64,000 nucleotides of DNA from a virus (IMGVR_UViG_3300025689_000001:32001-96000), one strand, 5' to 3'; shown: positions 237 through 59,433, counted from the stretch's first letter. Notes: a model not told the origin generated them from the letters alone. Numbers and translations are program-made.

Positions 237-944
237 ATGTCTAAAAGAATAGATTTAACTAATTAGACATTTGGTGATTGGTATGTTATTGATTTTAATA
301 AAGAACGAAGTAATAATCATGGCTCTTATTGGAATTGTAAATGTCTTAAATGTGGACTAATAAAAGCAGTACGTTCTACCAATTTGCGCTCGGGTGCCTC
401 AACAAGTTGTGGCTGTAAATCTTCTTAGATAAGAATTGGAGACAGGTTTGGATTTTTAGAAGTCATTTCCTTAGATGAAGAACGAAGTGGTTAGGGAAAA
501 GGCAGATATTGGTCTTGTTATTGCCATAATTGTGGCAGCACGCATTCAATTGATGCTTCAAATCTAAATAGAGGAAATGCATTAAGTTGCGGCTGTATTA
601 AAATGTCTAAAGGAGAATATAAAATTGAATAGTGGCTTAAAAGTCATAATATTAAATTTCACAAACAATATTATTTTGAAGACTTAAAACCTAATAATTA
701 TCCTTTAAAATTTGACTTTGCTATTTTTAATCCGAATATAATACTAATAGAATATTAGGGCAAGTAGCATTATGAGCCAATAGATTTTTATGGTGGAATA
801 GAAGGGTTATAGAAATAGCAATTAAGAGATAATCAAAAAAGGGAATATTGTTTATCACACAATATTCCTCTATATGAAATTTCTTATAAAGATAATATTA
901 GTAAATTGGAGGAATGTATTTATGGAAATAATGAAACAAACTGA
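237..944 (+). CDS. free-standing homing-type endonuclease: two Cys-rich (W.C.C..CG...SCGC) repeats plus a C-terminal Vsr/DUF559-like PD-(D/E)XK domain; needs TAG=Gln
   Basis: Manual translation MSKRIDLTN[Q]TFGDW...WNCKCLKCG...TSCGC...SKGEYKIE[Q]WL...FDFAI...IEY[Q]GK[Q]HY; ends TGA 942-944; absent from the ORF track because of in-frame TAGs. Confidence 0.8.
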
Positions 945-1119
945 TGAGATACGTGTTGATACTTATGAAGAAGCTAAGGAGTTAATTGAAAAATTTAAAT
1001 CTGATGCTAAAAAAGAAGGATATGATATAATTAGTAGCGCCGCGACTCTTAAAGAAAAAAAATCTAAAGGCGAAGTAATTGATTCATACTATATTGTTAA
1101 AATAGTTAAAAGATGGTAA
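922..1119 (+). CDS. hypothetical protein
   Basis: GGAGG RBS before ATG 922 (MEIMKQTDEIRVDTYEEA...); ends TAA. Confidence 0.7.
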   Translation: MEIMKQTDEIRVDTYEEAKELIEKFKSDAKKEGYDIISSAATLKEKKSKGEVIDSYYIVKIVKRW

Positions 1120-1307
1120 AAGGACAAGGACTGATGGATGAAGTCTGCCGCGGCTTAGCTGGTGAGATAAGTTTTGAAGAATCCGTTCGCAGACAAACAA
1201 ACATCTTGGAATATGAGATAATGCAAGCCATTAAAGAAAAATTGGAGGGATATATCAATGAAATTCCACATGGACGAAAAGGAGAGCTACAAAAAGAAAA
1301 TCGATAA
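1113..1307 (+). CDS. hypothetical protein
   Basis: ORF overlapping the upstream stop; ends TAA. Confidence 0.45.
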   Translation: MVKGQGLMDEVCRGLAGEISFEESVRRQTNILEYEIMQAIKEKLEGYINEIPHGRKGELQKENR

Positions 1308-1377
1308 GATGAAGGAAGATATGGCTCGCCGCAATAAGGAAATTCAGAAAGAGTGCGAAAAGAAGAAAAAACAGTAA
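1258..1377 (+). CDS. small charged hypothetical protein (39 aa, MKFHMDEKESYKKKIDKMKEDMARRNKEIQKECEKKKKQ)
   Basis: GGAGG RBS at ~1244; below the ORF-track length cutoff. Confidence 0.5.
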   Translation: MKFHMDEKESYKKKIDKMKEDMARRNKEIQKECEKKKKQ

Positions 1378-1404
1378 GGTTGAAAAAGTCAGGGCTTAAA
1401 AGTC

Positions 1405-1433
1405 TTGACTTTTTCTTTATTTTATGATATAAT
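1405..1433 (+). promoter_or_regulatory. sigma-A type promoter for dnaE
   Basis: TTGACT-17 nt-TATAAT with extended -10 TG. Confidence 0.8.
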
Positions 1434-1511
1434 ATATATAGAAAGATAAAAGAAATATTAAAAATGAATATCCCTGCATAGTTGCTCGGCGATATTGATT
1501 GGAGGTATATA

Positions 1512-4500
1512 ATGGATATTAAGACACTCAAAAGATTTGACGGTCATTCCCATAGCATGTTTTCAAACTTCCGTTTGATTGACTCAATAAACAGACCAAA
1601 GGATATGATTCTTAAGGCATATGAACTTGGTATGTCAGGTATTGCACTAACAGACCATGAAACAGTTGCTGGTCATGTCGAATGGTTGAAGTGTGAAAAG
1701 GAACTGAAGAAAACTGGCAAAATTCCAGAGGACTTCAAGTGCGCTTGTGGCAATGAGATTTATCTTGTAGATGACCGTACAAATATTGAAAGATATTGGC
1801 ACTACATTCTCATCGCTAAGAACACAGAAGGACACAGGGCGTTGAGAGAATTAAGTTCAACGGCTTGGTATAATGGATTTAATTCTCGTGGTATGATGCG
1901 TGTTCCTACTGAAAAGGCAGAACTTGAAGCAATCGTTAGAAAGTATCCGAACACTTTGATTGCAACAACTGCGTGTCTTGGCGGTGAGTTTCCTCATTTT
2001 GTGGCGGAGTTAGTTAAGGCAGAACAAGCTCATGATGAAAATGAGATTCGCAAGTGGAAGATGGAAATTCATAAGTTCATGACTTGGAATATTGATTTGT
2101 TTGGTGATGATTTCTATATTGAAATCGCTGCCGCAAATGTGAAGGACCAGATTCGCTTTAATGAAAGAGTTAAAAGCATCGCTACCTACTACAAGAGAAA
2201 AGTTGTAATCGGTTCAGATGCACATTATCTTACTGCAAAGGAGCGTCCTGTTCATAAGGCTTATCTTAACTCAAAAGATGGTGAACGTGAGGTTGATGGT
2301 TTCTATACTTTCGCTCATATGATGGATAATGAAGAAGCATATGGAAATCTTAGCATGACTTTCTCTGAGGAAGAGTTCGCAGAGTTTTGTGCAAACTCAA
2401 TGGAAATTTATGATAAGATTGGTACTTATGATATTTTCAGAAAGCCAATCATTCCGAGAGTTGAAGTTGTACCAAAGGATTGTCCAGTAACTCCTGATTG
2501 GATTTGGAAGGATGATTGTCCGGTACTTACACAACTTATTCAGAGTGATAATGTACAGGAAAAGTATTGGGTAACAGAATGTTTACTCAGTATGATTGAT
2601 AAAGGACTTTTTGGAAAAGAGAATTATATGATTGTTCTTGAAACAGAAGCAAGAGTAATTAAGGTTGTTGGAGAGAAACTCGGTAACTGTCTGTACGAGT
2701 ATTTTAATACTTTCCAACATATGATTAACTTATTCTGGGATTGCGGTTCAATCGTAGGTCCTGGACGTGGTTCAGCAGTTTGTTTCTTAAGTAACTATCT
2801 TCTTGGAATAACTCAGCTTGACCCATTGAAGTGGGGACTTAAGTATTGGAGATTAACTTAATTTAAAGGTCTCCCTATATAGCGATATATAGAAAAATAA
2901 CTCCGTGAACGTTTAGCAAACGGTGTCGACTTTACTATTGGAACCGTAGGAAATGACGGTTAAAAAGTCGGCTAACAGGGAAGAGTCTTTATTCGTTAAA
3001 GAGAATCCTGTGCCAAGCTACTTAAATATTGGAGAGCCAATATTTAAGATGAAGGTGAAACGACTATCGAAAAGCATATTTAAATATGAACTGAGTAGAG
3101 TAGGATGGAGATGCTACCATCTGAAGCGCGGAGGCTCTCATAATATATCATATTAAAGAGGTGATAATTATGGGATATATTTATAAAATAGAAAATAATA
3201 TTAACCATAAAGTTTATATTGGACAAACAATTAAATTTTATGAAGAACGTTTTAAATAGCATAAGGTAAATTATACGAAAGAATATTTTTCATAGTTGGC
3301 ATTATATAAGGCATTTAATAAATATGGAATTGAAAATTTTACTTTCTTACCCATTGAAGAAGTTGCAAATGAACTTTTAGATGAGAGAGAAAAATATTGG
3401 ATTTCATTTTATGATAGCTATTATAATGGTTATAATTCTACTTTAGGAGGAAGATTAGTAGAATTATATGAGTGGGATGTTGATAAAATTATTGAAAGAT
3501 ATATGGTTTTAAAATCAGCTCGCAAGGTTGCAGAAGAAATCGGATGCGACCATTCAACTATTGATAGAATTTTAAATGAAAACAAAATTAAACGCTTTAC
3601 TTTAAAAGACCAAAGAGTTTATAACAATGTTGTTATTGAAAATGAAAAAGAAAGATATTTTTTCAAAGATAATCGAGAATGTGCAATTTTTCTTATTGAA
3701 AAAGGTTATAGTAAATCAAAAAATATTGATTATATATCTCATGTAATAAGAAAATCTATTAAACAAAATAAATATTATTTAGGTTTTAGAATATATTGTG
3801 AGAGCAAGATATAGTCTACACCCCTGGTGACAGGGGATTAATGTGTTTTAAATGAAGAGCGTGTAGAACTGCCTAAACTTTAATATTGGGCAGTATAAAA
3901 TGGGTGAACGCATTCAGCGGTGTCTTCTTAATTGAAGGCTAACGGTAGAAGTTGAATAAGGCAATGCGCGAAGCAGCTTCGTAAGAGAGACTACGGTCCT
4001 GAAAAGGATAGCAGTTGATACCGTGCTAAGTTAAACTTTATCTATTTTTCTGGAAAAGTTGAAGATTTATCTCATTCTAATACTTTATAACTGAGGTGAT
4101 AGAATGGAAAGAGAAATCAAAAACTTTCCCGGGTATACAATAACTGATGATGGAAAAGTTATCAGTTACAAATTTAAAAAGCCAAGAGTAATGAAAACTT
4201 GGTATCAAAAATCTGGATATGAAAATATTAAACTATGTAAAGATAATGTAACTTATCATTTCTTAATTCATAGATTGGTTGCAGAAGCTTTTATTCCAAA
4301 TCCAAATAATTTACCTGAAGTGAATCATAAAGATAAAAGTAGACAAAATAATCGAGTAGAGAACTTGGAGTGGAGTAATAGAGCAGATAATCTTTATGAT
4401 AGTTATAGTACAATGACTGCTACAAGAAATTTTAGAGAATGTATCTTAATAAGAGAGAAAGACAATGCTGAAATTAAATCTTTTCAATCTGTTAAAGCGG

Positions 4501-7500
4501 CAGCAGAATATGCAAATGAAGAATTTGGTTGTAGTATTAGTGGAATGAGAAAAAATTATAAATCCAGAGGATATAGATTAGAGTTTAAAAAGTGTAACGA
4601 CTAAATTGAGATTATAAAATCTCTAAAAGGATGGAGATGAATACCATTCCGTAGTGCCCATTATGGACAAAAGTCCTAAAGAGATAGTCTATTCCCCTAA
4701 TAAATATCGGGAAACCGAGGGTGTAAAAAGGATATTGATATTGACCTTACTCCTTCAAAGAGAGCTGCTGTTTTCGCCGCCCTTCGTAAGGAGCGTGGAG
4801 AGCTCAACGTTATTCAGGTTTGTACTTATGGTACAGAAGGTACTCGTTCTGCAATTGCCGCCGCTTGTCGTGGTTATCGCTCAGAGTGGTATCCCGATGG
4901 TATTGATACAGATACAGCACAGTATCTTAGCTTGTTGATTCCTCAGGAGCGTGGACTTCTCTGGTCAATTCATGATGCCGTTTATGGTAATGAGGAAAAG
5001 GGCAGGGCTCCTATCGCAGCTTTGGTAAATGAGCTTGATAAGTATCCCGGTCTTCTTGAGATAATCGAGTCTATTGATGGGTCGAAGAAAAAACTGGCCC
5101 TTAAACACCTTTTCCATTAATCAATGGGGTTAAGATTTAATCTTAGCTAACGGGGAAGCCTGAAGCTCCTGTCGTGAGACATAGGTATGGTAATCCCGTG
5201 GGAAAAACTTTTCTTCACGATTTTATTGAAGAGTATTTATCATTTTATTACCTTATTAATGAGAGGTGATAATAATGAATTATATATATGGTTATCAAAA
5301 TAAAATAACAGGTAAATGGTATGTAGGACAAACTTCTAAGTCTATTGAAGAAAGACATAGATTACATTTATCTTCTGCTTATCATGAAACTTGTAATGAT
5401 TATAATTGCTTATTCCATAAAAAAATTAGAGAATATGGTATTGAAAATTTTGAATTAGTTCTATTAGAACAGGTTATTGACAAATCTTTATTAGACGAAA
5501 GAGAGCAATATTGGATAAAAGAAAAGAAGTCTTTTGTTAGAGACAACGGATATAATTTAACAACTGGCGGCCAACAAAGAAAAAATAATGAAGACTATCA
5601 AGATATCCGTCAAACGTTTTCCAGTGAAGAAATTCAGGAAGTATATCGTCTAATAAGAGATGAAAACATCAAACTTACAGATATAGCAAATAAATATGAT
5701 GTTTCTTTAAGTTTAATTTGTATGATTAATTCTGGTAAAAAATATCATAATGATAATTTAATCTACCCTTTAAGAAAACAAAACATTAAAATTTCTGAAG
5801 AAATTGTCGATGAAATAATTTCTTTATTAAAAGAAAATAAAGGTAATGCAGAAATTGCTAAGATTTATGGAATAAATGAAGATGTGGTTTATAGGATTAA
5901 TAAAGGTTTAGCACATAAAAGAGATATTGATTATCCAATTAGACAAAACAGTAGTAAAAAGCAAGAGCTTATTGATAGAGCAAATACAATTAAATCTTTA
6001 TTAAAAGAAAATAAACTTAATAATAGACAAATTGCTGATTTAGTAGGATGCGATCCGTCTGTTGTATCTAATATAAATTATGGAAAAAATTATTATGATA
6101 ATACTCTTGAATATCCGTTAAGAAAAAGTTAAACCTGTATCGACTATCTCTGGTGAGACAGAGAGTAGGGACACTATTGATACGTGTCGCCACGGAGGCA
6201 ACAATGTGGCTGAGAACCGAAATGGGGTTATTAGTATTTTATACTAATTAAAAGATAGTCAGGGCTTGATTGAAAAATCAAGATAACCGTAGTTAATAAG
6301 AGAGGACAGCACGCATCTGGTGTTATTCTTTATAACGATTCTCCATTTGAAACTGGCGCAATTATGAGAAGTCCGAACGGAGATTTGACAACACAATATT
6401 CTCTTCACGAAGCAGAGGAACTTGGAGACGTTAAGTATGACTTCCTTGTAACTGAAATTTGTGATAAGCTCACAATTGCAATCAGTTTGCTTCAGAAGGA
6501 TAATTTAATTGACCCAACCCTGAACTTAAGAGAGGTTTATAATAAGTATCTTCATCCTGACGTTCTTGACCTTAAGGACCAGAAGATTTGGGATGCACTT
6601 AGTAACGGTACGGTTCTTGATGTATTCCAGTTCAGTACGGGCGTTGGTCTTGCAACTGCAAAGCAGGTTAAGCCGCAGAATCCTACTGATATGCTTAACG
6701 CAAATGCGTCGACATTGGCGCTTACACACTTTACCTTTAATCAAAGGGGTTAAGATTTAATCTTAGCTAACGGGGAAGCCTGAAGCCCCTGCCGGGAGGC
6801 ATAGGTATGGTAATCCCGTGGGAAATATTGATTCACCTCATAGGAGGTGATAGAATGCATTTAATATATTGTTATACAAATTTAATCAATAATAAAAAGT
6901 ATATTGGACAAACAAATAACTTAAAAAGAAGAATAAAATAGCATAAAGATGATTCTTTTACTAATTATAGTGAAGCAAGATATAATCAATTAATTCATCG
7001 AGCTATTAGAAAGTATGGTTTAGATAATTTTGAAATAAGCGTCTTAGAAGATAATATCTCTACGGAATTAATTGATGAAAAAGAGAAATATTATATAAAT
7101 AAATATAATACAATAGCTCCAAATGGATACAATTTAACAGAGGGTGGAATGGCAAACAAAACTGCTCCAGTTCCCTCTAAATATGAAGATGTTTTTATGA
7201 TGATAGTAGAAGAATTAAAAGGAGCGAAAAGCCTTAAAGAAATTGCAGGACAATTTAATATGTCTTATTCTTATTTAAGTGATATAAATAACGGAACAAG
7301 ATTATTTCATGAAAATATAGTTTATCCAATAAGAAAAAGTTCAAATTCTCCAAGTAAAGAAGATTATTAGATTATTATTGATATGATAGAAAATACAAAT
7401 TTATCTTGTGCTAAAATAGCTCAATAGTTAAATTTAAATGCTGCAACGGTTAGAAAAGTAAATAATGGATAGATTAAAAAAGTGGTTAATTTATTTCCTG

Positions 7501-10500
7501 AAAAGACTTTTCCGCTAAGAAAGGTGAATCAATAAACCTGTAGAGACTATCTCTGGTTAGACAGAGAGTAGGTTTACTATTGATACGTAAATCAAAATGG
7601 TGTGCCGTAAGGTAAAAGATAGTCCAGACCACAAACAGTTGCCCAGCTGGTAGAGAAATCTATAGTGGTATGTAATGAGACTTATGGGTGAGCCTGGAGA
7701 GGAAAGACCTCTCAATAGATATTGCCGTCTTAAGGAAGATATGAGAGCATGGTACATGGAGGCAAAAGATGCTGGTCTTACAGAAGAGCAGATTAAAACT
7801 CTTGAACCATATTATCTTCCTAACTGTGGAGTTCCTTCTTCACAGGAAGACATGATGGAAATCTGTATGGACGAAAAGATTGCAAACTTTAGTCTTTCTG
7901 AAGCAAATGCGACAAGAAAGATAGTTGCAAAGAAGAAAATGGACCAGATTCCTGCTCTTCACGAGAAGTTTGTAAATGCTTGTCCGACAAAGAGATTTGG
8001 AGAATATGTATGGAAGACAACAATGGGTCCTCAGATGGGATAAGTAACGATTGTCCTATCAAATACCCTTTCTTCTTATCAGAAGGGTTCTAATTTATTA
8101 GAGCTAACGGTTGAACCCAACACTTATAGATAGAACAAAAAGCTATCTGTAAGAAGGGCAATCCCGTGGGAATCATCTTATGGATAGTAATAAATGGAGT
8201 TGATATAATGTATTACATTTATTGCTATAAAAATAAAATTAATGGACATAAATATGTTGGACAAACAAACAACATAAAAAGAAGAATTAATGAACATAAA
8301 AGCGCCGCCTTCAATGAAAATAGCGGTGATTATGATTTATTATTTCATAAAAAATTAAGACAATATGGAATAGATAATTTTGAAATAGTTATTTTAGAAG
8401 AAATTGACTCAAATGACCAGACTGTAGTTGATGAAAGAGAACAGTTTTGGATTAAATTTGAAAATAGTTTTGTTAGAAATGGTAAAGGATATAATCTAAC
8501 AGAAGGCGGTCAGTTCTCTAAGACAGTTAATAAAAAAATATCTTTGGAAGATGCAAAAGAAATTCAGCAAATGATATTAAAAGGTAAATCATATGAAGAT
8601 ATTCAAAATAAATATAATATCTGTCCAAGTTATATTACAATGATAAATCAAGGGAATTATTTCTATGACAAAGATTTAAGTTACCCTCTTCATAAATATT
8701 ATAAATCAGATGATGATTATAATGAATTAATTGATTTACTTAAATATAGTGATTTATCATTAAAAGCTATTTCAGAAAAATTAGGTTTTGGATATTCAAC
8801 AGTCAAAAAGATTAATGAAGGTAGACTTAGAAAAGGCTTATCAGAAGAATATCCAATAAGAAAAAAGACCGTGTATGCAATAAAAGCAGATAGGGTTAAA
8901 GATTTATTATTAAACTCTACTTTAACTATTCCAGAAATAATGGTTGAGACTAAAGTAAGTCAAGAAACTGTTAGACGTATTAATATTGGTGAGTCACATC
9001 ATGACTCAAATTTAAACTATCCATTAAGATGAAGCCTGTATCGACTATCGCGGGTTAAGCCGCGAGTAGGGTGACTATCGATACGTCACTCGAAACGGGT
9101 ATTGGCGCTCCTAATAAGGAGCGAGTTAAGATATAGTCAGAGCCTATAGGAATATAGGATTACTCGATTCATTTGCAAAGCCTCATGCTCTTGCTTACTC
9201 ATTCGTTGGTATTCAGACTCTTTATCTTGCAACAACATATTCCGACATTTATTGGAATTGTGCTTGTTTGATTACAAATGCCGGCGGTGCGGATTTACTT
9301 GACACAGAAGATGTGGACAAGGAACTGGAAGAAATGGCAGAGCAGGATATTGAGGAAGTCGACGAAGACGAACTCATTGAAGCAATTAGTAAAAAGTATA
9401 AGAACAAGAGCGTTAACTATGGTAAGATTAGTGTTGCTCTTGGTAAGTCTAAAAAGGCAGGCATTAATGTTTTGCCGCCAGACATCAATAAATCAGACCT
9501 CATCTTTAAGCCAGATGCAGAGCGTAATGCAATCATTTATGGTTTGAAGGGTATCGACAGAATTGGTACAAGCCTTGTTTATGAAATCATGGAAAATCGT
9601 CCTTATACTTCTCTTGAAGATTTTACTAATAAGGTAAAAGTTAATAAAACTCAAATGGTTTCCTTAATTAAGGCAGGTGCATTTGACAATATTTATGGTG
9701 ACAGAGAAAAGACAATGGACTCTTATCTTGAACTCATTGCAGATAAGAAAAAGCGTATCACTTTGCAGAATATGACAATGTTGTATAATAAAGGTCTTAT
9801 TCCAGAAGAGCTTTCGTTTGAAGCAAAGGTTTATAACTTTACTAAGTATATTAGAAAGTTCAAACAGGGAGATTATTATTATCTCAATCATATTGCAATG
9901 AGATTCTTTATGGAGAATTATGACACAGATGTGCTTGTAGATATGGTAATTGACGGTGAAGATAATCACGCTTTAATTAAGCAGTCAACATGGGATAATA
10001 CCTATGATAAGGCAATGAATCCAGTAAGAGCATGGATGAAAGCAAATCAGGAAGAAATTCTTAGCACATTGAACAGAAGTCTTTTCGAAGATGTTCGTAA
10101 CAAGTATGCTCTTGGTTCGATTGATAAATGGGATATGGACGCCCTTGGTACATATTGCCACAATCATGAACTTGCAAATCTCAATAAGAGAGCATATGGA
10201 ATTGTAGATTTCGAGAGTCTTGACCCTGAGCCAGTAATTGCGTCTGAGTTCACAACAAAGGACGGCGGCGTAATTAGAATGTATGAAATTTCAAGAATCT
10301 GCGGAACTGTTATTGATAAGGATAAGAATAAGAGTACAGTAGTTCTCTTAACTCCTACAATGCAGGTTGTAAACGTAAAGGTTTGGAAAAATCAATACGC
10401 AAAGTGGGATAGACAAATTAGTAGAAAGAATCCTGATGGTACTAAGACAGTTATTGAGAAGAGCTTCTTCGCAAGAGGTAATAAACTGATTATAACTGGT

Positions 10501-47510: not shown

Positions 47511-47512
47511 TG

Positions 47513-48991: not shown

Positions 48992-49003
48992 TCACATCAC
49001 CCA

Positions 49004-49540
49004 TTATCGAGGGCTGAATACACCTTCAGGTCTCTTTTCTTCCTTACCTGCGTTTGCTTTTTCAGCATCAGCCTCAAGTCTCTTTCTTGCAATCATTGCA
49101 ATAACATCTTTTCCGCTTCTCTCTTTCAAGTAGTTAACCTTATCATTATCAATTAAGTTATGCTCAACAGCATACTTAACTACTTCGTTAACCTGCTCAA
49201 GAGAAACTGTATCCATCTCCTTCTTAAAGTCATCAAGACTTCTAACCTTAAGAAGAGTCAAAATCTGTTCAGGTGTAAGAACCTTAATATTTGTTGGAGC
49301 TTTTGCGTCAGGACTTTCAAGTCCAAGGTCAATCTTGGTCTGCATATCATCAATATAAAGCTGACCAGTCTTAATCATGTACTGAAAACCATTATCCTAT
49401 AAAAGCTGTTCTACCGTTTCGAAGGGGAGCATCTGAACAACGCCTTTACCAGGAAATTCTCTTTTAATTCCATAAGCAGGAGCATAAATTTCAGTTGTCT
49501 TTGCAACTGTGCTTCTGAGTTTTACCATTCTTGTTTCCAT
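49004..49540 (-). CDS. hypothetical head-associated protein (one TAG)
   Basis: AAGGAGG RBS, ATG 49540, in frame with track ORF 49004..49378. Confidence 0.75.
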
Positions 49541-49569
49541 TATTAAATTCCTCCTTTAATCTCAATAAT

Positions 49570-49604
49570 AAAAGGGCAGGTGAGAATTCTCACCCACCCC
49601 TTTT
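49570..49604 (-). terminator. intrinsic terminator after the capsid gene
   Basis: GGG..GGTGAGAATTCTCACC..CCC stem with U-run. Confidence 0.65.
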
Positions 49605-49634
49605 AATCACGTATTCTTACTTACTTAACCGAAA

Positions 49635-50768: not shown

Positions 50769-50790
50769 TACTTTCTCACCTCTCCTTCAA

Positions 50791-51555
50791 TTAAAGTGTT
50801 GCGCCGTTAAGAATCTGGAACATAAATGAGCATGTTCTGTCGGCGTTATCATAAGCTGCTACAACCTGAGCAAGAATGATGTCTTCATCCTCATCAGGTG
50901 TAATACCAATTACAAACTCACCGTCTGAACCGTCACGAACTGCGGCGTAAAGCGGAATGTTAGGATTTGCATGAATGTAGTTCTTAACCTGGAGCCACAT
51001 ATCATAAGAATCAGCAGTTGCAGTGAAGCCACTGAAGTCAATAGCAGGAGCAGCCTGTCCGTTAAATGCAACAGCATTAGCGATTGCAGCAGTTGTATCC
51101 CACTGTACTGTGTTTGTAGTAATTCTCTCGCCTGCCTCAACATAACCAATTCTTGGGAGCCAATCCTCTGTTGTCAAGAAGAAGTTTCTTCTCTGAGGAG
51201 CAAACTGATTGTAGAGCTTTTCAGTTGAGTAGTTAACACCTACACGAAGTCCTGCTGCCTTACCAGCCTTTGTAGGAACCTGAGCAAGGTAGTTATGCTT
51301 ATCAACCATAAGGAATGCACCATTCTGTGCAACAATCTTTGTAGCGTCGCCTGCGCCAGGAGTTGTCTCTCTTACGAAAACTGTGAGAGGAGCAACCTGA
51401 GCATCGGAGAACTCTCTTGGGTCAAGTCTGCTCTGTGCTTCAACCATACCAGCTCTATCGAACCAAACCTGGTTAGGCTCGATCTGGCCATAGTTGAGAC
51501 CCTTAGCACTATTTCCGTTACGGTAAAGACCGCGGTCAAATTTTACCAAAGCCAT
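50791..51555 (-). CDS. putative capsid decoration/minor head protein
   Basis: Lies between the scaffold and MCP genes; high-expression codon bias; no TAG. Confidence 0.6.
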   Translation of the reverse strand: MALVKFDRGLYRNGNSAKGLNYGQIEPNQVWFDRAGMVEAQSRLDPREFSDAQVAPLTVFVRETTPGAGDATKIVAQNGAFLMVDKHNYLAQVPTKAGKAAGLRVGVNYSTEKLYNQFAPQRRNFFLTTEDWLPRIGYVEAGERITTNTVQWDTTAAIANAVAFNGQAAPAIDFSGFTATADSYDMWLQVKNYIHANPNIPLYAAVRDGSDGEFVIGITPDEDEDIILAQVVAAYDNADRTCSFMFQILNGATL

Positions 51556-53078
51556 TATCTATTACCTCCTTTGTGTTTTAATAAAAGTGCGATAACGCCA
51601 GAGTCAGTATTCTTTGCGTTATTCTTGAAGATTAAGTCAGGCTTATCTTCCTCTCCCTTACCGGAGATAATAGAAGAATCAGTATTGTAAGCAGCAAAGC
51701 ATACTTCCTTCTTGAAGTCTTCAACAGAATAATCATCCATCTTAGCGTTGAAATCAGCTGTCTGCTCCTCTGTGAGATGCTCAGCAAATTCGGCAATAAT
51801 AGCGTTCTTCTTTTCTGTATCAACAGACTTCTTGAAGCTTTCAAGCTCTGACTTTTCATTATTAAGGTCGCTAATTGAGCTATTTAATCTACTAATTTCG
51901 GCATCCTTTGCCTCAAGCTGAGATTTAAACTCATCAAGCTGTGACTGAAGTTCTGCGCTGTTGTCAAGAGAATTCTTAGACTTATCGTCATCCTTCTTGT
52001 CATCATCGTCATCCTTCTTGTCGTCATCCTTCTTATCATCGTCGTCCTTCTTGTCATCATCCTTCTTGAATGCCTCAATCTGAGCGAGCGCATCATCAAG
52101 GCTTGCCTGAAGGGCTTCCTTATCAGCTGTGAACTCTGCAACCTTTGCATCGTAAGACTCAATCTTAGCCTGAGCGTCAGCAAATGAACCTGCAGCCTTC
52201 ATAGCATTAAGAGCTGTCATTTCAGCTTCTGTTACATCAACGATGTAGCAATCTTCAACTCTGTCAATTGCAACAGTATTAGCTTCATTATCCTTTGTGT
52301 AGTAAGCACGAATATACTTGTTATTAACAGCGTCATATGCAATTGCATAGTCATCATAAATGTCGCAAATAATCTTATAATCTTCTGGTGTGCTGTTAAG
52401 TGCATCAAACAAGAGCTCGCACTTCGCGCCATCAGAAAGTCTAAAGAGATTTTTCTCCATCTTTTTGCTCTCCTCCTTTTCCTTAGAATTTTTTAAGTAA
52501 TCAAACATTGCTTTAGCATCCTTATATAAACTAAAGAATGCAGAACCTTCGAAGCAGGGTTCGACCTCATCTCCGAGCACCTGTAGACCTAGCAGATGTC
52601 CTTTCTGGAACTCGAAGTAAGGTTCTCCATCACTCCAAATCTTCCACTCTCCTTCAAGTCCTTTTTTATGGATTTCCATAGACTGTGACTTTCCGGGGAT
52701 AAGGTTTGCTTCTGGATAGAGAGCGGTGTAGAGATAAACATCTGCACAAGCATACTCTCTTTCAACCCCATCATCATCTACATGCTTCTCCCAAGCAAAG
52801 TTAGGGTCCTCAGGAACCACACCATAAATGCGTCCGTCAGTATTATCTCCGCCGTGGTCCTCATAATCAAGACCGTCTTTGTCAAAAATACCTTTAATTG
52901 GCGCATATGGTAAAGACTCAATCAATTGTTTTGCGAAGTCTTCCGATATAAATGTACGGTTTCTATTGAGTCCCCTATAAAAAATGCGTAATCTGCATTT
53001 AGAAAGAGTGGGAGAAAGAGTTTCAACATCGCCAAAAAGCGTAACATTGAATTTAAGTAAACTCTCATCAAGCTTCAT
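51555..53078 (-). CDS. prohead protease-scaffold fusion
   Basis: N-terminal protease-like motifs (NRNRTFIS, QSMEI, VLGDEVEPCFEGS) and an acidic coiled-coil C-terminus. Confidence 0.8.
   Translation of the reverse strand: MKLDESLLKFNVTLFGDVETLSPTLSKCRLRIFYRGLNRNRTFISEDFAKQLIESLPYAPIKGIFDKDGLDYEDHGGDNTDGRIYGVVPEDPNFAWEKHVDDDGVEREYACADVYLYTALYPEANLIPGKSQSMEIHKKGLEGEWKIWSDGEPYFEFQKGHLLGLQVLGDEVEPCFEGSAFFSLYKDAKAMFDYLKNSKEKEESKKMEKNLFRLSDGAKCELLFDALNSTPEDYKIICDIYDDYAIAYDAVNNKYIRAYYTKDNEANTVAIDRVEDCYIVDVTEAEMTALNAMKAAGSFADAQAKIESYDAKVAEFTADKEALQASLDDALAQIEAFKKDDDKKDDDDKKDDDKKDDDDDKKDDDKSKNSLDNSAELQSQLDEFKSQLEAKDAEISRLNSSISDLNNEKSELESFKKSVDTEKKNAIIAEFAEHLTEEQTADFNAKMDDYSVEDFKKEVCFAAYNTDSSIISGKGEEDKPDLIFKNNAKNTDSGVIALLLKHKGGNR
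51980..52070 (-). repeat. low-complexity KKDDD(D) tandem repeat in the scaffold domain
   Basis: KKDDDKKDDDDKKDDDKKDDDDDKKDDDK. Confidence 0.9.
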
Positions 53079-54670
53079 TATTTATCCTCACCTCCATCAC
53101 TCTTTTTTTCTGCAGAACTATCATCTTCCTTTGCCTTGTCTGAGGATTCTTTTTTCTCTTTCTGTTCCTCGTCTTTTTTAGCAGTAGTAGAGTCATTAGA
53201 GTTTTGGCTGTCTTTTCCAGCCTAAGCAGTAATAGCATTAGTCTTGCCAGATTGAGTATATGCTGACTGGAGCGGCTTAAGTACTTCATCCAAATCGAGA
53301 ACTTCATTCTCCAAAGCCTTAAGGTCTGCAAGATTAGTCTAATTAAGTCCTGTTGACAAAATAGGTGTCAAGAAGCTGTAACCAAATGCTGCAAGGTCCT
53401 TAGCCTTTGAAGTGTACTCAAAGCTATTGTAATAGCTGACTGGTAGTACTAATAGCATGAATGATAACTTTCGGTTACCAAATTTATTATTTAACAAGGC
53501 AGTAAAGAAGTGTGCAAATCCATTGCCAAGAACCATCATCATAGACAGGTCATTGTTCAATGAGAACTAAATACCTGCATCAGTTGTGGCACTGAACAGT
53601 TCCTTCGATACGCCTGCAGAATCGTATATTAATTGCTGGGCGGCGGCAACATCGGTATTTTCCATATTGTTTCCGCTTAAATCAAGCAAACCAACTTTAC
53701 CATAAGAAGTAACTACGTCGGCGTCTGGATTATCTGCTAACATCTCCAGAACACCGTCATGCATCTCTGCGGCTTCGTCTGGTTCAAATACAAGCTACAT
53801 TCCATCGTGTGGAATTTCTTGTGTGATAATTCTCTTTAATCCTAACTATTTTCTATCCTTATCAATTGCCTTATAATCCTCTAAATCATCGATAAGAGGA
53901 ATTAAATCAAGAAAGAATGGAACTTCGTCAAACAATGTGAAATAGATACCAAGTTCAGCAGGTAAGAAAATCCAAGGTTCTTTACCATTCTTGAAAGCAC
54001 GATAGCCTTTCTGAACACACTTAGGATAAGTTTTAAGAATCTGCTTTCTTAACTCTTCGTCACGAATTGTGTCAAAGAAACGCATATCAAATTCAACAAT
54101 ATCAACATCTTGGTGATTCTTATATCTACTACGACAATACTCAAAAGGCAGGTCCTGAATAGCTACATCAGTACCGCTGTCATGAATAATACCATAATAG
54201 CCGCCATCCACAAGAACATTCTTTGCAAACCAAGCACATTTTCTTTCAATATCAAAAGAAGAACAAAAATCGGCTGCATCGAAATAAACTTTCTTGTTCT
54301 GCTTGTTACCAAGCTTCTCAGTATACTTTTTCATATGAGGGACTAAAATCCAGGAATAGGTAAGGAAAGTAGCATAGTGGAGAATAACTCGTTTATAAAC
54401 ACCGCTTACTTTGAAGAAATATTGAGATAGCTGACATTTTTCAACGGAATTTCCTTCAGTAACAATACGATGAATTTCATCTTTACTAAAGTCTCTTCTA
54501 ATTCTATTTGCAGAAGGCTCACGGTTATTAGACTTAATCAACGCGGCTTTGCTTTTAGCTATCATATTCTCAATTTCTTTTCTGAAAGTATCAACTCTCT
54601 GCTCACGCAGTTTGCGATATTCTTCAGCAGTAATTGTAGGAATTGTTGCTCCAACTTTAACTTCACTCAC
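53078..54670 (-). CDS. portal protein (~530 aa, TAG read-through)
   Basis: Three track ORFs in one frame; lies between TerL and the protease; TAA overlaps the protease ATG. Confidence 0.85.
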
Positions 54671-56469
54671 TTTCTTCCACCTCCCTTACTACAGAATGTC
54701 AATCGTCTCGTTAAACCACGATTACGGCGGCGAGCCAATTGCTGATTTTCAATCTACACAACTCTATAAACTCCCATTTCCAAAGCTGAGAATTTATCCT
54801 TAAGTGTTCTCTCATTAATTTGTTCAACGGCAATTTGGTTATTAATACCAGTAGGCTTAATCTTCAAGTTCATAATCTCATTCATAAGACTTGAAGTTAA
54901 GATATGTGGCATCAATCTTGCGTTCTGTGCTTCTGGACTCATTCTCTAACCCTTACGAGTTGAAAGAAGTTTTGTTCTTGCAGACTGCTCTGAAATTAAA
55001 AATTTCATATGACCAGAATAAATCTTTGAATATAAAGCAGAGTGCATATCACTGTTGATTTGTCCATTAGCCTTGATACCAAAAAGAATTTTGACCGCAT
55101 TACGAGGCTGAACTGTAAGATATTTAGACTCTTCATTAAAGAAACCATAAGCAGGACGAGTAACCTAATACTCTTCATCCCAAGTCTCCTTAATCATGTT
55201 ATCTGCAAAAGCAACACCAAGTCCGTTAATATCGATTACAACCTCTTTAGGGTTGAACCTTTCAATAAGTCTCTTAAGCTCAATTACCTAACGGTCAAAT
55301 ACTTTCTCTTCTACTGTTTTACCAAGAACAAATAAATTAACAAGATTTATCTTATATCCTTCACTATTGTTAGGAAATACTTTAAGGACTGTAGCGACAG
55401 TCTAACAACCAATTCTCGCTACATCCACACTGATAATGTAGAAAGATTCGATACCTTCTCTAACTTTTTCTGATGTTTCCGGATTGATAAGTCGTCTTGC
55501 GCGAGCAAGCTTCTCAAAATCAAACCAAGCATCTGCGGAGCCGCCGACGAACCTCGACATATACTCCTTAGCAAAGCCAAGTTCATTAAAAGTAGGCGAC
55601 ATTTTCAATTCAGTCAGATAGTCTTTAGAAAGAAGTCCAGTTAAAACTGGGATTCTGTAGTCGAAGCCCCAAACGAAAGTTTCCTTTGGGTTAATAATCT
55701 ATTGTTCAAACAATTCAATAGTCTTATCATAGCAGAAAGTATTTTTCTCACTTGCAGAAGTAATCCACAGCTGTACCTGCTGTGGTTCATTTTCATTCAA
55801 ATCTCCGTTAACCATAGGACGGTCAACGTTCAAAAGTGGTAATATAATTTCATTAATATCTTCAGCCAAATGGTCACGGAACTCATCGAGAATACCACAA
55901 GTAGCACGGTTACCACGAGTTGAGTTCAGTGGCGTCATAACGTCGAAAAGTGAACCATTTTTAAAAGTAAGTCTTACATAGTCATTACCAAAGTTACCGC
56001 CACCAATGATTTCATCTTTCAAAAGTGGGAAGAAATCCCAAAGCTGATGAATCTTCTGATTGGCGATTTTAGCACCCTGAGCTTTACCAGGAGCGCACTG
56101 GAAAACGTGTGAACCAGGACGGAAAATACAAATCAAGTAAAGCGCAAGAATACAAATAAATGATTTACCGGCGGCACGAGGAGCAATAGTCAATACACGT
56201 CCATATCTCAAACATGCTCTGATAAACATTACTTGGAAGAATTTTAACTTAAACTTAGAATGTACAGGTTTAATCAATTCAAGATAAAGGTCTGGATAAG
56301 AAGCAAATAAATTCAAATACTGCTCATATAATTTAATATTTTTCTGAATACGTTTTTCAGTGATAACTGCGCCTTTCTCAAGCGCCACGCCATTACGGTA
56401 GAAAGTCTCACCCTTACTTAATACCTTTGACGTGGCGGCAAGCATGGCTGACGGTAATATAATACTCAT
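54667..56469 (-). CDS. terL: terminase large subunit (~600 aa, TAG read-through)
   Basis: Walker A APRAAGKS, Walker B GILDE, motif III ITSA, nuclease ISVDVAR and IDINGLG; TGA overlaps the portal GTG. Confidence 0.92.
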
Positions 56470-56478
56470 ACTACCACC

Positions 56479-57399
56479 TTAAATCTCAACATTAAACTCT
56501 TCATTTTCATCGACAGAGTTAGCGAATTCATCATACTCGCCCCAGTCGAATCCTGAGTTCGTAAGTTTATCAGCAGCCTTCAAATTCTCAATTCTTTCAT
56601 TAATCTCTTCACCGATAGAAGTCTCATTAATATAAAGATAACGTGACCAATACTGAATATCCTTCATAGTCTTGTCAACTTCATCGTTGACCGCACCATT
56701 GTAATACTAAACCTTATATCCAAGTTTTTCAAGATAAGCCCAAAGTTCACCAGTAGAGTTGAACTCTGAACCTTCTTTAATTGCCTGAGTAGTAATACCA
56801 GCAAGTTTACACAAGTTCTCATAAGCCTTCAAATCTTTATCGAATTCAACTCCGCCGCGGATTTTGTCCTCAATAATTAACGATATCTTGCAAAGTTTAA
56901 GGACTTGGTCCTCATTCAAAGCACCAACAATGCCGGCAGTATTAGTAATACCTACATACAAATTCTCAAGGTACTCCAATTGCTACTCATCATATTCTGG
57001 ACCCCATCTTCTCTGGAGCTTTGTAACTCTTGCTTCCTTCAATTCCGGCAATCCATCTTCTACACGTTTTTCTTCCTGAAGCTGTAAATACGCATCGTTA
57101 TACATCGTCCAATCGAGCGTATTATAAGGCTTCTCTCTGAACATATAACAATATGTTCCAAAAGCATCAGTTCCATGAGCTTTGTAAATTTTCTCAAACT
57201 CTTCTGGAACAAAAGGAACATCAGCAAGCTGACACAGCTTATTAACCGTATTCCATCTCTCTGTTTCCGACTTACCACTAATTTCATTCGCAATGCACTG
57301 GCGGCAAATCGGCATAGAACCATTAAGAAGTTTTGACCTTACACCAATGAAATTGGCAGGGCTCTTTTCTTCTTTACATAGCAAACATTTCTTTGCCAT
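56479..57399 (-). CDS. Zn-finger protein upstream of TerL (possible small terminase/packaging factor; TAG read-through)
   Basis: CLLC...ICRQC; three track ORFs in one frame. Confidence 0.7.
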
Positions 57400-57412
57400 T
57401 TTTCCTCACCTC

Positions 57413-57700
57413 TTAATTTTGAGGTGAACTATTCTATTCCTTTACTCTATAAAATTCATCATTATTTTTCTTAATCTCTTTTGCCAACTTTAAAATCTCT
57501 CTTCTTTCTTTTCTACCTAAAGCGGAATAGAACTCAACCGTAGTAATAATCAATTCTTCCCAATCCTCATTAAGAATTGCTTTCTTAATAGTCTCTGGGT
57601 CAACTTTAACAATCTTAGCAAAACCAAGTATATCCTTAACTTCAAACGAAGTAAAACACTTCATCAATTTTGCTTCATAACTATTTCCCAATCCCATCAA
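57413..57700 (-). CDS. hypothetical protein (TAG at 57434 read through to TAA 57413)
   Basis: GAGGTG RBS; track ORF 57434..57700 plus 7 codons. Confidence 0.65.
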
Positions 57701-57703
57701 ATC

Positions 57704-58216
57704 TCACCTCACATACTCCCAGTGATAACCATGGGTGGCTTTATAAATACCTTTGCAAGTTTTTGCAATTGCAGAATCATCCAAGCCCGTTGCTCTTGCT
57801 GCTTCACGGATAGATGGATAAATAATTTGCGTTTCAAGACATTTTACTGGGACACTTTTCTTAATATCGTTTCTTTGTTTATTAGAAACTTTTTTATTTC
57901 TATTTCCATAATTACAATTATCTTTATGAATCATCCATTCTAAATTATCAATTCTATTATTTGTTTTGTTTTCATCTTTATGATTTACGTCATAATTATT
58001 CATATCATCAATTGGATTAAATGTTTCCATTACAAGTCTATGTATATGTTTCGTTTTTACTTCGCCGCGTAAATGAAGTGTAACCTACAAATATCCTTTG
58101 GAAAGAGATAATTTTAATATTTTTTCTCTATTAAAATATAAACTCTTAACTCTACCAAAACTACTAATTTGATAGAAACCTTCATAACCCTTTATATCTT
58201 TCCATTCTTCTGTCAT
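57704..58216 (-). CDS. free-standing NUMOD4/HNH endonuclease (TAG read-through)
   Basis: EEWKDIKGYEGFYQISSFGRVKS...GYL[Q]VTL...IHRLV...VNHKDENKTNNRIDNLEW. Confidence 0.88.
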
Positions 58217-59433
58217 TAAATTTCACCACGTCGTTTTTTTTGGTCACATCTTTTGCAGCGGTTCGTAAGCCCGTCAGGGGCTTTAGATTTTCTTACAAAA
58301 TTACGCGGGTCACGCAATAAAATTTCATTACAGCAGTTGCACTTTTTCCACGCAGGCTTATAATCCTTGCAACACCATTCATCATAATTAAGGTCGGCGG
58401 CATCGCAAATTAGCTGACAAACTTTGTTCCAAATAGTCGAAATATAATTCTCCTAATGATAAATCCCCATTTTATCCATCAGGAGCTAACAAATCTCCTT
58501 ATTCAACATATTATGCTTCTTCGCCTCAGTAATCAGCTTCTATTGTTCACTCAAATTCGCTTTTTCAATATAGAAGTCAAGCGTCCATAACAAATTATTA
58601 AGCGGCGAATCAGGATTCTTCTCAGCCTAATCCTTAATCTAATAATAATTCAAACATAACTAATAAACATGCTCTTTATCTAAAAAACTAAAATAGGGCT
58701 TTCCTTTTTTCTTAAGCTCCTCAATTTCTTTCTCGATGTCCCTCGCGGCGAATTGACGCCCACTTCTATCCGGGTGCATGAAACCACTATCATGCTCATA
58801 GCTCATCATCCCACACGGGTAAACCGGATAATTCATCTCCGAGTCAATTGGACTTGAATAAAAGCTACCGTAATTCTTGTTCGCCACCTACTCTGGATGA
58901 GCTGAATCCTTCAACATGTACTGTTGCTTCCTCAACTCAATAAGCTAATGGTTTAAGTGGTAAATCTGTTTGGAATCAAGCTGTGGGACAACTTCGCCGC
59001 GTTCCGGCTGAATTTCTCCCTTAGCAAGCTTAAGTCGTCTGTCGAGCTAATCAATAGCCTCCCAAAGCTCCTTCATACCAGGAATATCCTTATATTTTTC
59101 TCTGTTCTAACTAATCGATTCGGGTTTAACTTTCTTATAAATGTTTTTCTCTTTAGTAAAAATAGTTTCGTCAAATGTTGGACTTTCCATCAATGCTTCC
59201 AAAGAAACTGGTTCTGATTGGCTATACGAATTATAACGGGTTTTAATGTAGACTTCTTTTCGGTCGACAACTGATGTGTTGTTTTTCTCAGGGTCTTTAC
59301 CATATAAAACGTAATCTGTACAAGTCTCAATGTCTTTCTTGGTAAGTTGTGTAAAGTCAACAGTATCCTTGAGGTACTAAAGTCTTTCTTGGGAGGTTTC
59401 AAGATTAAAGTCAAGTTTAAATCTCATAGGCAT
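58216..59433 (-). CDS. conserved hypothetical protein (~405 aa) with an HTH-like segment and C-terminal Zn ribbon; first gene of the late operon
   Basis: GGAGGTG RBS; TAG read-through; WKKCNCC...NRCKRCD. Confidence 0.72.

What the first reader, a model, noticed from the sequence alone, without database searches (positions are those of the whole stretch)
237..59433. Genome-wide amber (TAG) reassignment to Gln (genetic code 15) in a Firmicutes-type phage
Seen: essential genes (TerL, portal, tape measure, Dit, tail tip, ClpP, dUTPase, RuvC) appear as same-frame fragments broken only at TAG. Reading through gives plausible full lengths, and the resulting TAA/TGA stops overlap the next start codon (TerL/portal, portal/protease, tail tip/14464 gene). 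TAG falls where Gln fits: IEY[Q]GK[Q]HY in the Vsr-like nuclease, EM[Q]VNHKD and GYL[Q]VTL in the HNH proteins. Tandem TAG-TAG also occurs. Known: code-15 recoding is described in gut phages (Lak, some crAss-like and some Firmicutes phages). Inference: the phage switches the code during infection of a standard-code host, and the suppressor tRNA must lie outside this window.
Basis: partly seen in the sequence, partly recalled or inferred. Interest (0 to 1): 0.8.

Follow-up and report, generated by a model that had tools for sequence, protein, structure and literature searches.

The report
Phage that reads TAG as glutamine
This is part of a large uncultured phage from ruminant gut and digester samples that reads the stop codon TAG as glutamine, using its own pair of TAG-reading tRNAs; the reading is correct, but this trick is already well described in gut phages.

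Summary

- **Gene calls.** Reading TAG as sense cuts the calls from 198 genes (78% coverage) to 153 (91%). No other stop reassignment does as well.
- **Read-through.** 161 of 205 in-frame TAGs sit inside homology that continues on both sides in related phages.
- **Amino acid.** TAG means Gln, not Glu, Lys or Pyl. In relatives at 85% identity or more, our TAG aligns with TAG (12), CAA/CAG (10), Lys (2) and Glu (0). A standard-code sibling has Gln at 13 of 42 sites, against a 3.5% background.
- **The tRNA.** The predicted suppressor exists: two tandem tRNA(CUA) genes lie 25.3 kb beyond the window. They carry the U1-A72 acceptor pair seen in all seven tRNA-Gln of this clade.
- **Missing machinery.** No release factor or Gln/Glu-tRNA synthetase gene was found.
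- **Distribution.** TAG is dense in tail, terminase and portal genes. It is absent from the major-capsid-like and other high-GC virion genes, and from gyrase, in all five genomes compared.
- **Closest description.** The phAss-1 "code 15 clade" and the recoded clades of Borges et al.

This is a new member of a known kind. The same scan has flagged TAG recoding in several hundred other genomes. The infection-time code switch remains an inference.

The parts
237..944 (+).
   Evidence: PHROG 559/9084, E 7e-35; motif IEY-TAG-GK-TAG-HY at residue 171
1464..10635 (+). DNA polymerase III alpha (dnaE) in several pieces, separated by four GIY-YIG genes and one HNH endonuclease gene. TAG occurs in two of the endonuclease genes (3161-3841: 3; 6807-7535: 4) and hardly at all in the polymerase pieces
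   Evidence: PHP, DNA_pol3_alpha, DNA_pol3_finger, HHH_6, GIY-YIG and HNH_3 hits
11782..12531 (+). ClpP-family protease, 249 aa, 1 TAG
   Evidence: PF00574, E 1e-28
12512..13327 (+). dUTPase with a 120-aa N-terminal extension. The 2 TAG (residues 113, 121) lie just before the catalytic domain, so that domain is made only by read-through
   Evidence: PF00692, E 3e-27; PDB alignment starts at residue 119-124; no code-11 ORF of 100 aa or more covers the domain
13333..14052 (+). RuvC-like Holliday junction resolvase, 239 aa, 2 TAG
   Evidence: PHROG 159/827
14087..59433 (-). Late (virion, packaging, lysis) block: 26 genes of 80 aa or more, 21 with in-frame TAG, 135 TAG = 22% of all Gln+TAG codons. 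The tRNAs that decode these TAG lie OUTSIDE the window: two tandem tRNA(CUA) genes at genome c[121331-121405] and c[121409-121484] (window-equivalent 89331-89484, locus L024 9331-9484, minus strand), 3 nt apart, both with U1-A72, A73 and an encoded CCA
   Evidence: tRNAs: ARAGORN; Rfam tRNA 35.9 and 45.1 bits against a 29-bit cutoff; acceptor-end comparison
14464..20880 (-). 2138-aa distal tail protein (no family match), 14 TAG
20894..24136 (-). Dit-like distal tail protein, 1080 aa, 7 TAG
   Evidence: PHROG 33/202, PF05709
24754..25470 (-). Endolysin (CHAP + PG_binding_1), 238 aa, no TAG (only 4 Gln codons, so not significant)
25511..33472 (-). Tape measure protein, 2653 aa, 37 TAG
   Evidence: PF10145, PHROG 4211
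35566..46249 (-). Five paralogous virion proteins (PHROG 2729) with 5, 7, 7, 1 and 0 TAG. The 1127-aa one (42866-46249) is TAG-free in all five genomes compared
49635..53078 (-). Major-capsid-like gene (49635-50768), a 254-aa gene and a 507-aa gene. All three are TAG-free here (0 of 43 Gln-type codons) and GC-richer (0.40-0.45). The first two are TAG-free in all five genomes
   Evidence: PHROG 4088/3313; MCP homology to phAss-1 and Enterococcus phages
53078..54670 (-). Portal protein, 530 aa, 5 TAG
   Evidence: PHROG 2739, E 6e-59
54667..56469 (-). Terminase large subunit, 600 aa, 6 TAG
   Evidence: PHROG 9/38/5909; 64-91% identical relatives
58216..59433 (-). First gene of the block: a sigma-like / sigma4-HTH-like regulator with a C-terminal CxxC...CxxC pair. 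It has 11 TAG of 23 Gln-type codons, the highest share among the larger genes. The true start is the ATG at 59433, behind a GGAGGTGA ribosome-binding site
   Evidence: PHROG 5767 'sigma factor', E 1e-24; fold matches to sigma region 4 at only Z 6-6.6; sequence; enrichment P=0.0025, computed with 12 TAG
59459..59487 (-). Sigma-A-type promoter TTGACT-17-(TG)TATAAT directly upstream of the sigma-like gene, conserved in relatives

Best explanation
The window is the central part of a tailed phage with a long non-contractile-type tail module. The record holds 122.7 kb, about 75% of the genome; complete relatives are 161-186 kb. The likely host is an Oscillospiraceae-type Clostridia bacterium of ruminant gut or anaerobic digesters.

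The phage uses UAG as a glutamine codon (NCBI table 15). Decoding is done by two phage-encoded tRNA(CUA) genes in the tRNA array near the end of the record. These look like tRNA-Gln with position 36 of the anticodon changed, and are presumably charged by the host's glutamine pathway; no phage synthetase or release factor was found.

TAG is unevenly used. It is frequent in low-copy virion, packaging and homing-endonuclease genes. It is rare or absent in gyrase and other replication genes, in the small early genes, and in the most abundant virion proteins.

The most likely working is the published one. Host-code-compatible genes are translated first, the suppressor tRNA accumulates, and only then can TAG-bearing late proteins be completed. 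High-copy proteins avoid TAG because suppression competes with host RF1.

Shown here: that TAG is read through, that it means Gln, that the tRNA genes exist, and how TAG is distributed. Inferred: charging by the host, competition with RF1, and the timing.
For: **Read-through is required**
- TAG-sense tiling gives 153 genes at 91.2% coverage, against 198 genes at 78.1% for code 11.
- 161 of 205 in-frame TAG are flanked on both sides by homology in relatives.
- All four complete relatives and 18 of 19 partial loci show the same gain from reading TAG as sense.

**The meaning is Gln**
- Across 662 aligned cells, our TAG pairs with TAG 126, CAA 110, CAG 53, GAA 58, AAA 49.
- The substitution profile fits Gln best: mean log-likelihood -2.66, against -3.36 for Lys and -3.50 for Glu. 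A second set covering 162 TAG sites gives -2.61, -3.07 and -3.14.
- At 85% HSP identity or more: TAG 12, Gln 10, Lys 2, Glu 0. At 75-85%: TAG 35, Gln 33, Lys 6, Gly 6, Glu 4. Our sense Gln codons meet the relatives' TAG in 10-15% of cells; TAG is not among the four commonest partners of our Glu or Lys codons.
- The standard-code sibling L014 has Gln at 13 of 42 sites against a 3.5% background, p=1e-9.

**The tRNA**
- Two tRNA(CUA) genes.
- All 6 tRNA(CUA) and all 7 tRNA-Gln in five genomes have U1-A72. The tRNA-Glu have G1-C72, C1-G72 or G1-U72 (one row without an encoded CCA was mis-parsed).

**Distribution of TAG**
- TAG is 22% of Gln-type codons in the late block, against 7-9% in the flanking early and replication blocks.
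- The MCP-like, 254-aa and 1127-aa genes and both gyrase subunits are TAG-free in all five genomes compared, except for a single TAG in the gyrase A homologue of one relative.

**Host**
- The endolysin is 92-93% identical on contigs binned into Oscillospiraceae and Ca. Fimenecus MAGs.
- Those bins encode an intact RF1 and, in one bin, a GlnRS-type domain.

**Published precedent**
- bioRxiv 10.1101/2021.08.26.457843; PMC10607447; PMC9523058 (abstract).
Against: - There is no protein-level evidence for this phage.
- The host link rests only on metagenomic binning.
- The record is 75% complete, so a release factor or synthetase could lie in the missing part. However, none is present in four complete relatives.
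- One of the two tRNA(CUA) genes has an atypical T-loop (ATC instead of TTC) and the other a weak T-stem. Both pass the Rfam tRNA cutoff by only 7-16 bits.
- The endolysin has no TAG, which does not fit the 'recoding prevents premature lysis' version of the model. With only 4 Gln codons this is not significant.
- A few TAG near gene ends could still act as stops.
Confidence: 0.93

Rival explanations
1. TAG encodes another residue (Glu, Lys, pyrrolysine, Ala), as this scan has claimed for some other phages, and the Gln label is only a habit of pipelines.
For: Glu and Lys are the second and third most common residues opposite TAG (14% each). ARAGORN labels CUA tRNAs 'Pyl' by default. An earlier scan note (e1-5757079) reports TAG=Glu in a 137-kb gut phage.
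Against: Glu and Lys appear at the frequencies expected for substitutions of Gln: sense Gln gives E 0.12 and K 0.11. In close relatives TAG exchanges with CAA/CAG (10 of 16 non-TAG cells at 85% or more) and never with GAA/GAG. TAG is not among the four commonest partners of our Glu or Lys codons. The tRNA(CUA) genes share U1-A72 with tRNA-Gln, not with tRNA-Glu. No PylS-type or class-I Glu/Gln synthetase domain was found in five genomes.
Confidence: 0.03
2. The host itself reads TAG as sense (or lacks RF1), so the phage simply matches its host and there is no code switch during infection.
For: The host is not identified experimentally. TAG-bearing genes occur in all parts of the genome, about 47% of genes of 80 aa or more as an upper bound.
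Against: The two MAG bins that hold near-identical phage genes encode RF1; the gene in one bin is intact with PxT and GGQ motifs. TAG is depleted 2.5-3-fold in the early and replication blocks. The phage carries its own tRNA(CUA), which a TAG-sense host would make unnecessary. A standard-code sibling phage exists in the same clade. No TAG=Gln bacterium is known (my knowledge).
Confidence: 0.04
3. The genes are pseudogenes of a decaying prophage or an assembly or sequencing artefact.
For: Under code 11 nearly every essential late gene is broken.
Against: Only TAG interrupts the genes. The same pattern holds in 22 of 23 related records from different samples. Homology continues across 161 TAG sites. 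A near-identical contig is present in a public run (100% over 6.8 kb, though that run may be the source), and contigs with 89-111 differences over 2.6-3.7 kb (about 96-97% alike) occur in runs from sheep gut and another sample.
Confidence: 0.01

Closest known systems
phAss-1 and the 'Caudoviricetes code 15 clade' / proposed Phassvirus group (Babkin et al. 2023, PMC10607447)
   Same: Large (90-148 kb) gut phages with a very long tape measure protein. TAG-to-Gln recoding affects TerL, portal, TMP and tail genes but not the MCP or DNA pol III alpha. They carry 2-3 tRNA(CUA) genes and no dedicated synthetase. The predicted hosts are Clostridia, and the group mixes recoded and standard-code members. 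phAss-1 is the best hit in the phage collection for the portal and the third-best for the MCP, the best among complete genomes.
   Different: The relationship is distant: portal 28.6% and MCP 36.9% amino-acid identity. This is not the genus Phassvirus. GC is 37% against 44.5%. Complete relatives are larger (161-186 kb). The habitat is ruminant gut or digester rather than human gut. Monophyly with that group was not tested here.
Alternatively coded 'gemstone' phage clades of Firmicutes hosts (Borges et al., bioRxiv 10.1101/2021.08.26.457843; later in Nature Microbiology)
   Same: TAG is recoded in structural genes and sparse in the replication machinery. Suppressor tRNAs are present, code-change proteins are mostly absent, close standard-code relatives exist, and animal-gut sources are common.
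   Different: Which named clade this lineage belongs to (if any) was not determined. Here the most abundant virion genes are strictly TAG-free clade-wide, and the endolysin is TAG-free. The paper stresses recoding of structural and lysis genes as a class.
Code-15 crAss-like phages validated by metaproteomics (Peters et al. 2022, PMC9523058)
   Same: The same reassignment (TAG to Gln), with experimental peptide evidence.
   Different: A different phage order and Bacteroidota hosts. No proteomic evidence exists for the present lineage.
E. coli supE (glnV) amber suppressor, tRNA-Gln with CUG changed to CUA (textbook knowledge)
   Same: A tRNA-Gln body with anticodon CUA that inserts Gln at UAG in competition with RF1.
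   Different: A chromosomal point mutant giving partial suppression, not a virus-encoded tRNA serving hundreds of sense TAG codons.

Membership tests
Code-15 (TAG->Gln) stop-codon-recoded phages | Essential genes are interrupted by in-frame TAG only, and reading TAG as sense restores full-length ORFs and coding density | tested here: met
Code-15 (TAG->Gln) stop-codon-recoded phages | TAG positions correspond to Gln in homologues | tested here: met
Code-15 (TAG->Gln) stop-codon-recoded phages | Phage-encoded suppressor tRNA with anticodon CUA (common, not universal) | tested here: met
   Two genes at genome 121331-121484. Also present in all four complete relatives, one of them with an insert in the anticodon
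Code-15 (TAG->Gln) stop-codon-recoded phages | Recoding is concentrated in late or structural genes, and early genes are compatible with the host code | tested here: met
   TAG share of Gln-type codons is 0.22 in the late block against 0.07-0.09 in the flanking blocks. Gyrase genes are TAG-free in the five genomes, apart from one TAG in the gyrase A homologue of one relative
Code-15 (TAG->Gln) stop-codon-recoded phages | The host uses the standard code | tested here: inconclusive
   Candidate host bins (Oscillospiraceae, Ca. Fimenecus) encode RF1, but the phage-host link is by binning only
Code-15 (TAG->Gln) stop-codon-recoded phages | Gln found at TAG positions in the protein | not testable with these tools
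   Needs proteomics
phAss-1 group / genus Phassvirus (Babkin 2023) | Genus-level nucleotide similarity to phAss-1 (members share 80-86% nucleotide identity) | tested here: not met
   Only 29-37% amino-acid identity in portal and MCP. Not a Phassvirus
phAss-1 group / genus Phassvirus (Babkin 2023) | Membership of the wider monophyletic group on TerL/MCP/TMP trees | not tested
   phAss-1 is the best hit for the portal and the third-best for the MCP in the phage collection, but no tree was built
Pyrrolysine decoding of UAG | PylS-type synthetase and tRNA-Pyl; UAG at Lys-like positions | tested here: not met
   No tRNA-synt_2d domain in five genomes. The profile fits Gln better than Lys

The most novel reading that the evidence does not exclude
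The code change may sit upstream of late transcription, not only of late translation.

The first gene of the 45-kb late block is a sigma-like regulator. Its C-terminal half resembles sigma region 4, and the PHROG family it matches is named 'sigma factor'. It sits behind a near-consensus host sigma-A promoter that is conserved in relatives. Half of its Gln-type codons are TAG (11 of 23).

Its mRNA could therefore be made early but completed only once the phage tRNA(CUA) has accumulated. That would make the suppressor tRNA a timer for a transcriptional switch. The highest-copy virion proteins stay TAG-free because suppression is limiting.

In the standard-code sibling the same gene has no TAG.
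Probability: 0.2. Interest if true: 0.55.

Novelty: new member of a known kind. Interest (0 to 1): 0.3.

Why it matters
**Practical.** With table 11 this phage's virion genes are shredded. About 45 spurious extra gene calls arise and 13% of coding sequence is lost. Annotation, clustering and host-range work on this ruminant-gut and digester lineage therefore need table 15.

**Biological.** The lineage adds a well-sampled clade: four complete genomes of 161-186 kb, many fragments, and one standard-code sibling. In it the gene-by-gene rules of TAG use are conserved. That makes it a good system for testing whether stop-codon recoding times late gene expression. It does not change what is known about the phenomenon itself.

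Tried and rejected
- **Pfam on late genes** gave almost nothing. PHROGs was needed.
- **Direct BLAST of the tRNA(CUA) pair** against nine related records found nothing. The relatives' suppressor tRNAs are too divergent. They were found instead by fetching whole genomes and running ARAGORN.
- **Identity-based clustering of the tRNA(CUA) genes with isotypes** was uninformative, with 62-73% identity to many isotypes. The acceptor-end signature was used instead.
- **Searches for code-change proteins** found none: RF-1 and PCRF domains, class-I Glu/Gln synthetase, and the PylS/PheRS catalytic domain. The own record is only 75% complete.
- **Rfam** found no group I intron or other RNA family in the window at gathering score.
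- **The sigma-like protein** had no significant match by sequence or profile against PDB, and none by Foldseek at E<=0.001. VIA-align gave several sigma region-4 matches at only Z 5.9-6.6, which is within the noise range for helical models. The 'sigma' label is therefore weak.
- **Laying RNA-library contigs** on 49635-56469: contigs from sheep-gut and other RNA libraries cover the region. The table of differences was cut before the TAG-bearing genes, and DNA carry-over cannot be excluded. This gave no information on expression or on RNA editing of TAG.
- **TAG as a stop in some early genes** could not be settled. Nine TAG lie at gene ends, with homology on one side only.


Full report
**What the window is.** The window is bases 32001-96000 of a single 122,745-bp linear IMG/VR virus record that CheckV rates 75% complete. 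GC skew and ORFs divide the window into three parts:
- a plus-strand replication and nucleotide-metabolism block (1-14060)
- a 45-kb minus-strand virion block (14087-59433)
- the start of a plus-strand region of small genes (from 59473)

**Checking the observation.** Under table 11 the virion block is a string of short same-frame ORFs. With TAG read as sense they fuse. A non-overlapping tiling of the whole record gives the following:

| Reading | Genes | Coverage | Mean length |
|---|---|---|---|
| Code 11 | 198 | 78.1% | 161 aa |
| TAG-sense | 153 | 91.2% | 244 aa |
| TGA-sense | 204 | 82.7% | 166 aa |
| TAA-sense | 198 | 87.3% | 180 aa |

Only the TAG-sense reading lowers the gene count. The gene after portal has no known function and is not shown to be a protease.

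The three quoted peptide motifs, four TAG-TAG pairs and one triple TAG are present. The stop/start overlaps follow from the coordinates.

**Is read-through real?** A TerL search of IMG/VR returned 19 related loci at 64-91% identity. I also fetched four complete relatives of 161-186 kb.
- All four complete relatives, and 18 of the 19 partial loci, gain the same way from reading TAG as sense.
- Of 205 in-frame TAG in genes of 80 aa or more, 161 are flanked on both sides by homology in relatives, 35 have no homologue information, and 9 sit at gene ends.
- Inside those alignments the relatives carry 516 TAG but only 15 TAA and 8 TGA.

A decayed prophage is excluded.

**Which amino acid?** Codon by codon, our TAG aligns with TAG 126, CAA 110, CAG 53, GAA 58 and AAA 49. 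CAA is two mutations away from TAG yet is the commonest partner. Mutational proximity therefore does not explain the pattern.
- The substitution profile of TAG columns fits the empirical Gln profile far better than any other residue: -2.66 per cell, against -3.36 for Lys and -3.50 for Glu. An independent set covering 162 sites gives -2.61, -3.07 and -3.14.
- Earlier notes of this scan report TAG=Glu and TAG=Ala in other phages, so I stratified by distance. At 85% identity or more: TAG 12, Gln 10, Lys 2, Glu 0. At 75-85%: TAG 35, Gln 33, Lys 6, Gly 6, Glu 4. Reciprocally, 10-15% of our sense Gln codons meet TAG in the relatives, while TAG is not among the four commonest partners of our Glu or Lys codons.
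- One relative, L014 (TerL 68% identical), uses the standard code. It has Gln at 13 of 42 of our TAG sites against a 3.5% background (p=1e-9). Our own sense Gln is conserved there at 44%.

TAG means Gln here.

**The decoding machinery.** The window has no tRNA. The record has nine by ARAGORN, all near its right end. They include two adjacent tRNA(CUA) genes at c[121331-121405] and c[121409-121484], 3 nt apart, with encoded CCA. Both pass the Rfam tRNA cutoff, at 35.9 and 45.1 bits against 29.

Across five genomes, all six tRNA(CUA) and all seven tRNA-Gln have U1-A72. The tRNA-Glu have G1-C72, C1-G72 or G1-U72 apart from one mis-parsed row, and U1-A72 is rare among the other isotypes. From established knowledge, U1-A72 is a hallmark of bacterial tRNA-Gln used by GlnRS and GatCAB.

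The fourth relative, G007, seemed to lack the tRNA. It has an orthologue with a ~45-nt insert inside the anticodon.

No release-factor, Glu/Gln-synthetase or PylS-type domain is present in this record or in the four complete relatives. The phAss-1 genome likewise lacks a dedicated synthetase.

**Where TAG is used.** TAG supplies 22% of Gln-type codons in the late block, 20% in the adjacent plus-strand block, and 7-9% in the outer blocks. Gene by gene the pattern is conserved across five genomes.
- TMP, tail proteins, TerL, portal and the head-proximal small genes always carry TAG.
- The MCP-like gene, the 254-aa gene next to it and the 1127-aa virion protein never carry TAG; both gyrase subunits also lack it, apart from a single TAG in the gyrase A homologue of one relative.
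- In this genome the five GC-richer virion genes hold 1 TAG among 99 Gln-type codons, against 22% overall.
- Homing endonuclease genes are TAG-rich: 8 TAG against 3 Gln codons in 237-944.

The simplest reading is that suppression competes with host termination. TAG is then tolerated in low-copy proteins and selected against in the most expressed ones and in genes needed before the tRNA accumulates.

**A possible regulatory twist.** The first gene of the late block (58216-59433) has the highest TAG share among the larger genes, 11 of 23 Gln-type codons. A twelfth TAG lies in the leader between the ribosome-binding site and the true ATG. Counted as 12 of 24, the enrichment has P=0.0025.
- It matches PHROG 5767, 'sigma factor' (E 1e-24).
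- Its model (pLDDT 72.6) resembles sigma region 4 over residues 266-361, but only at Z 5.9-6.6. Sequence and Foldseek searches gave nothing.
- It sits behind a near-consensus sigma-A promoter, TTGACT-17-TG-TATAAT, which recurs upstream of the orthologues.
- In the standard-code sibling the orthologue has no TAG.

This is compatible with a regulator that is transcribed early but completed only after the code change. It is a hypothesis only.

**Host and habitat.** The endolysin domains and the cultured relatives (Enterococcus, Bacillus, Brevibacillus, Lactococcus and Mammaliicoccus phages) point to Bacillota. The endolysin is 92-93% identical on two contigs binned into an Oscillospiraceae MAG and a Ca. 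Fimenecus MAG. The latter is a 184-kb contig and is probably a whole phage genome. Those bins encode RF1, intact in one of them, and one bin encodes a GlnRS-type domain. Near-identical or related DNA occurs in sludge and digester, bovine-gut and sheep-gut runs.

**Comparison with what is known.** TAG-to-Gln recoding with phage suppressor tRNAs, concentrated in late genes, is described for several groups:
- Lak, crAss-like and six further clades (bioRxiv 10.1101/2021.08.26.457843)
- crAss-like phages, validated by proteomics (PMC9523058)
- large Clostridia-associated phages around phAss-1 (PMC10607447)

phAss-1 is the best hit in the phage collection for the portal and the best among complete genomes for the MCP, at only 29-37% identity. 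The present lineage is therefore a new member of a known kind. The same scan has flagged TAG recoding in several hundred other genomes and in another window of this genome.

**Verdict.** Novelty is low and interest is modest. What remains open is the temporal switch and how RF1 competition is handled.

Noticed in passing
window 1464-10635: The DNA polymerase III alpha gene is in at least five pieces (PHP/palm start 1464-2861, finger halves 6364-6753 and 7597-8043, HHH_6 part 9268-10635). They are separated by four GIY-YIG genes and one HNH endonuclease gene. Rfam found no group I intron at gathering score.
   Followed up: partly
L059-L061 region: G007 142339-142460: In one complete relative the tRNA(CUA) orthologue is interrupted inside the anticodon (after CT, before A) by a ~45-nt insert. 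The suppressor there would need splicing or processing to work.
   Followed up: partly
L014 (IMGVR_UViG_3300045988_167817, 80-kb contig): A sibling phage (TerL 68% identical) uses the standard code. It gains nothing from reading TAG as sense, and its sigma-like orthologue has 0 TAG against 17 Gln. This makes a useful natural control and shows the code is labile within the clade.
   Followed up: partly
L024 9627-9696 (genome 121627-121696), minus strand: A third tRNA-like sequence (Rfam tRNA, 34.3 bits) lies just upstream of the two tRNA(CUA) genes and is not called by ARAGORN. By eye it may be tRNA-Pro(UGG). The record ends 1 kb further on, inside what is a 26-48-gene tRNA array in two of the complete relatives (the other two carry 7 and 12).
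   Followed up: no
L024 9409-9484 (genome 121409-121484): The better-scoring tRNA(CUA) has an 8-nt T-loop reading GGATCATGG, with no TTC. The other copy has mismatches in its T-stem. Whether both are functional is open.
   Followed up: no
window 35566-46249: Five consecutive paralogous virion proteins (PHROG 2729; 303, 731, 638, 700 and 1127 aa) show a gradient of TAG use (5, 7, 7, 1, 0) that parallels their GC content (0.34 to 0.42).
   Followed up: partly
window 237-944, 3161-3841, 6807-7535, 24126-24674, 57704-58216: Homing endonuclease genes carry TAG codons, up to 8 TAG against 3 CAA/CAG. These mobile genes are therefore themselves adapted to, and confined to, TAG-reading phages.
   Followed up: no
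L064 (JAZNZX010000038.1, 184,272 bp, in a Ca. Fimenecus MAG): A 184-kb contig binned into a bacterial MAG carries an endolysin 93% identical to this phage's. It is probably a complete genome of a close relative mis-binned as host DNA.
   Followed up: no
window 59755-59783 (+): A perfect sigma-70 consensus promoter (TTGACA-17-TG-TATAAT) faces away from the late block, at the start of the region of small early genes.
   Followed up: no
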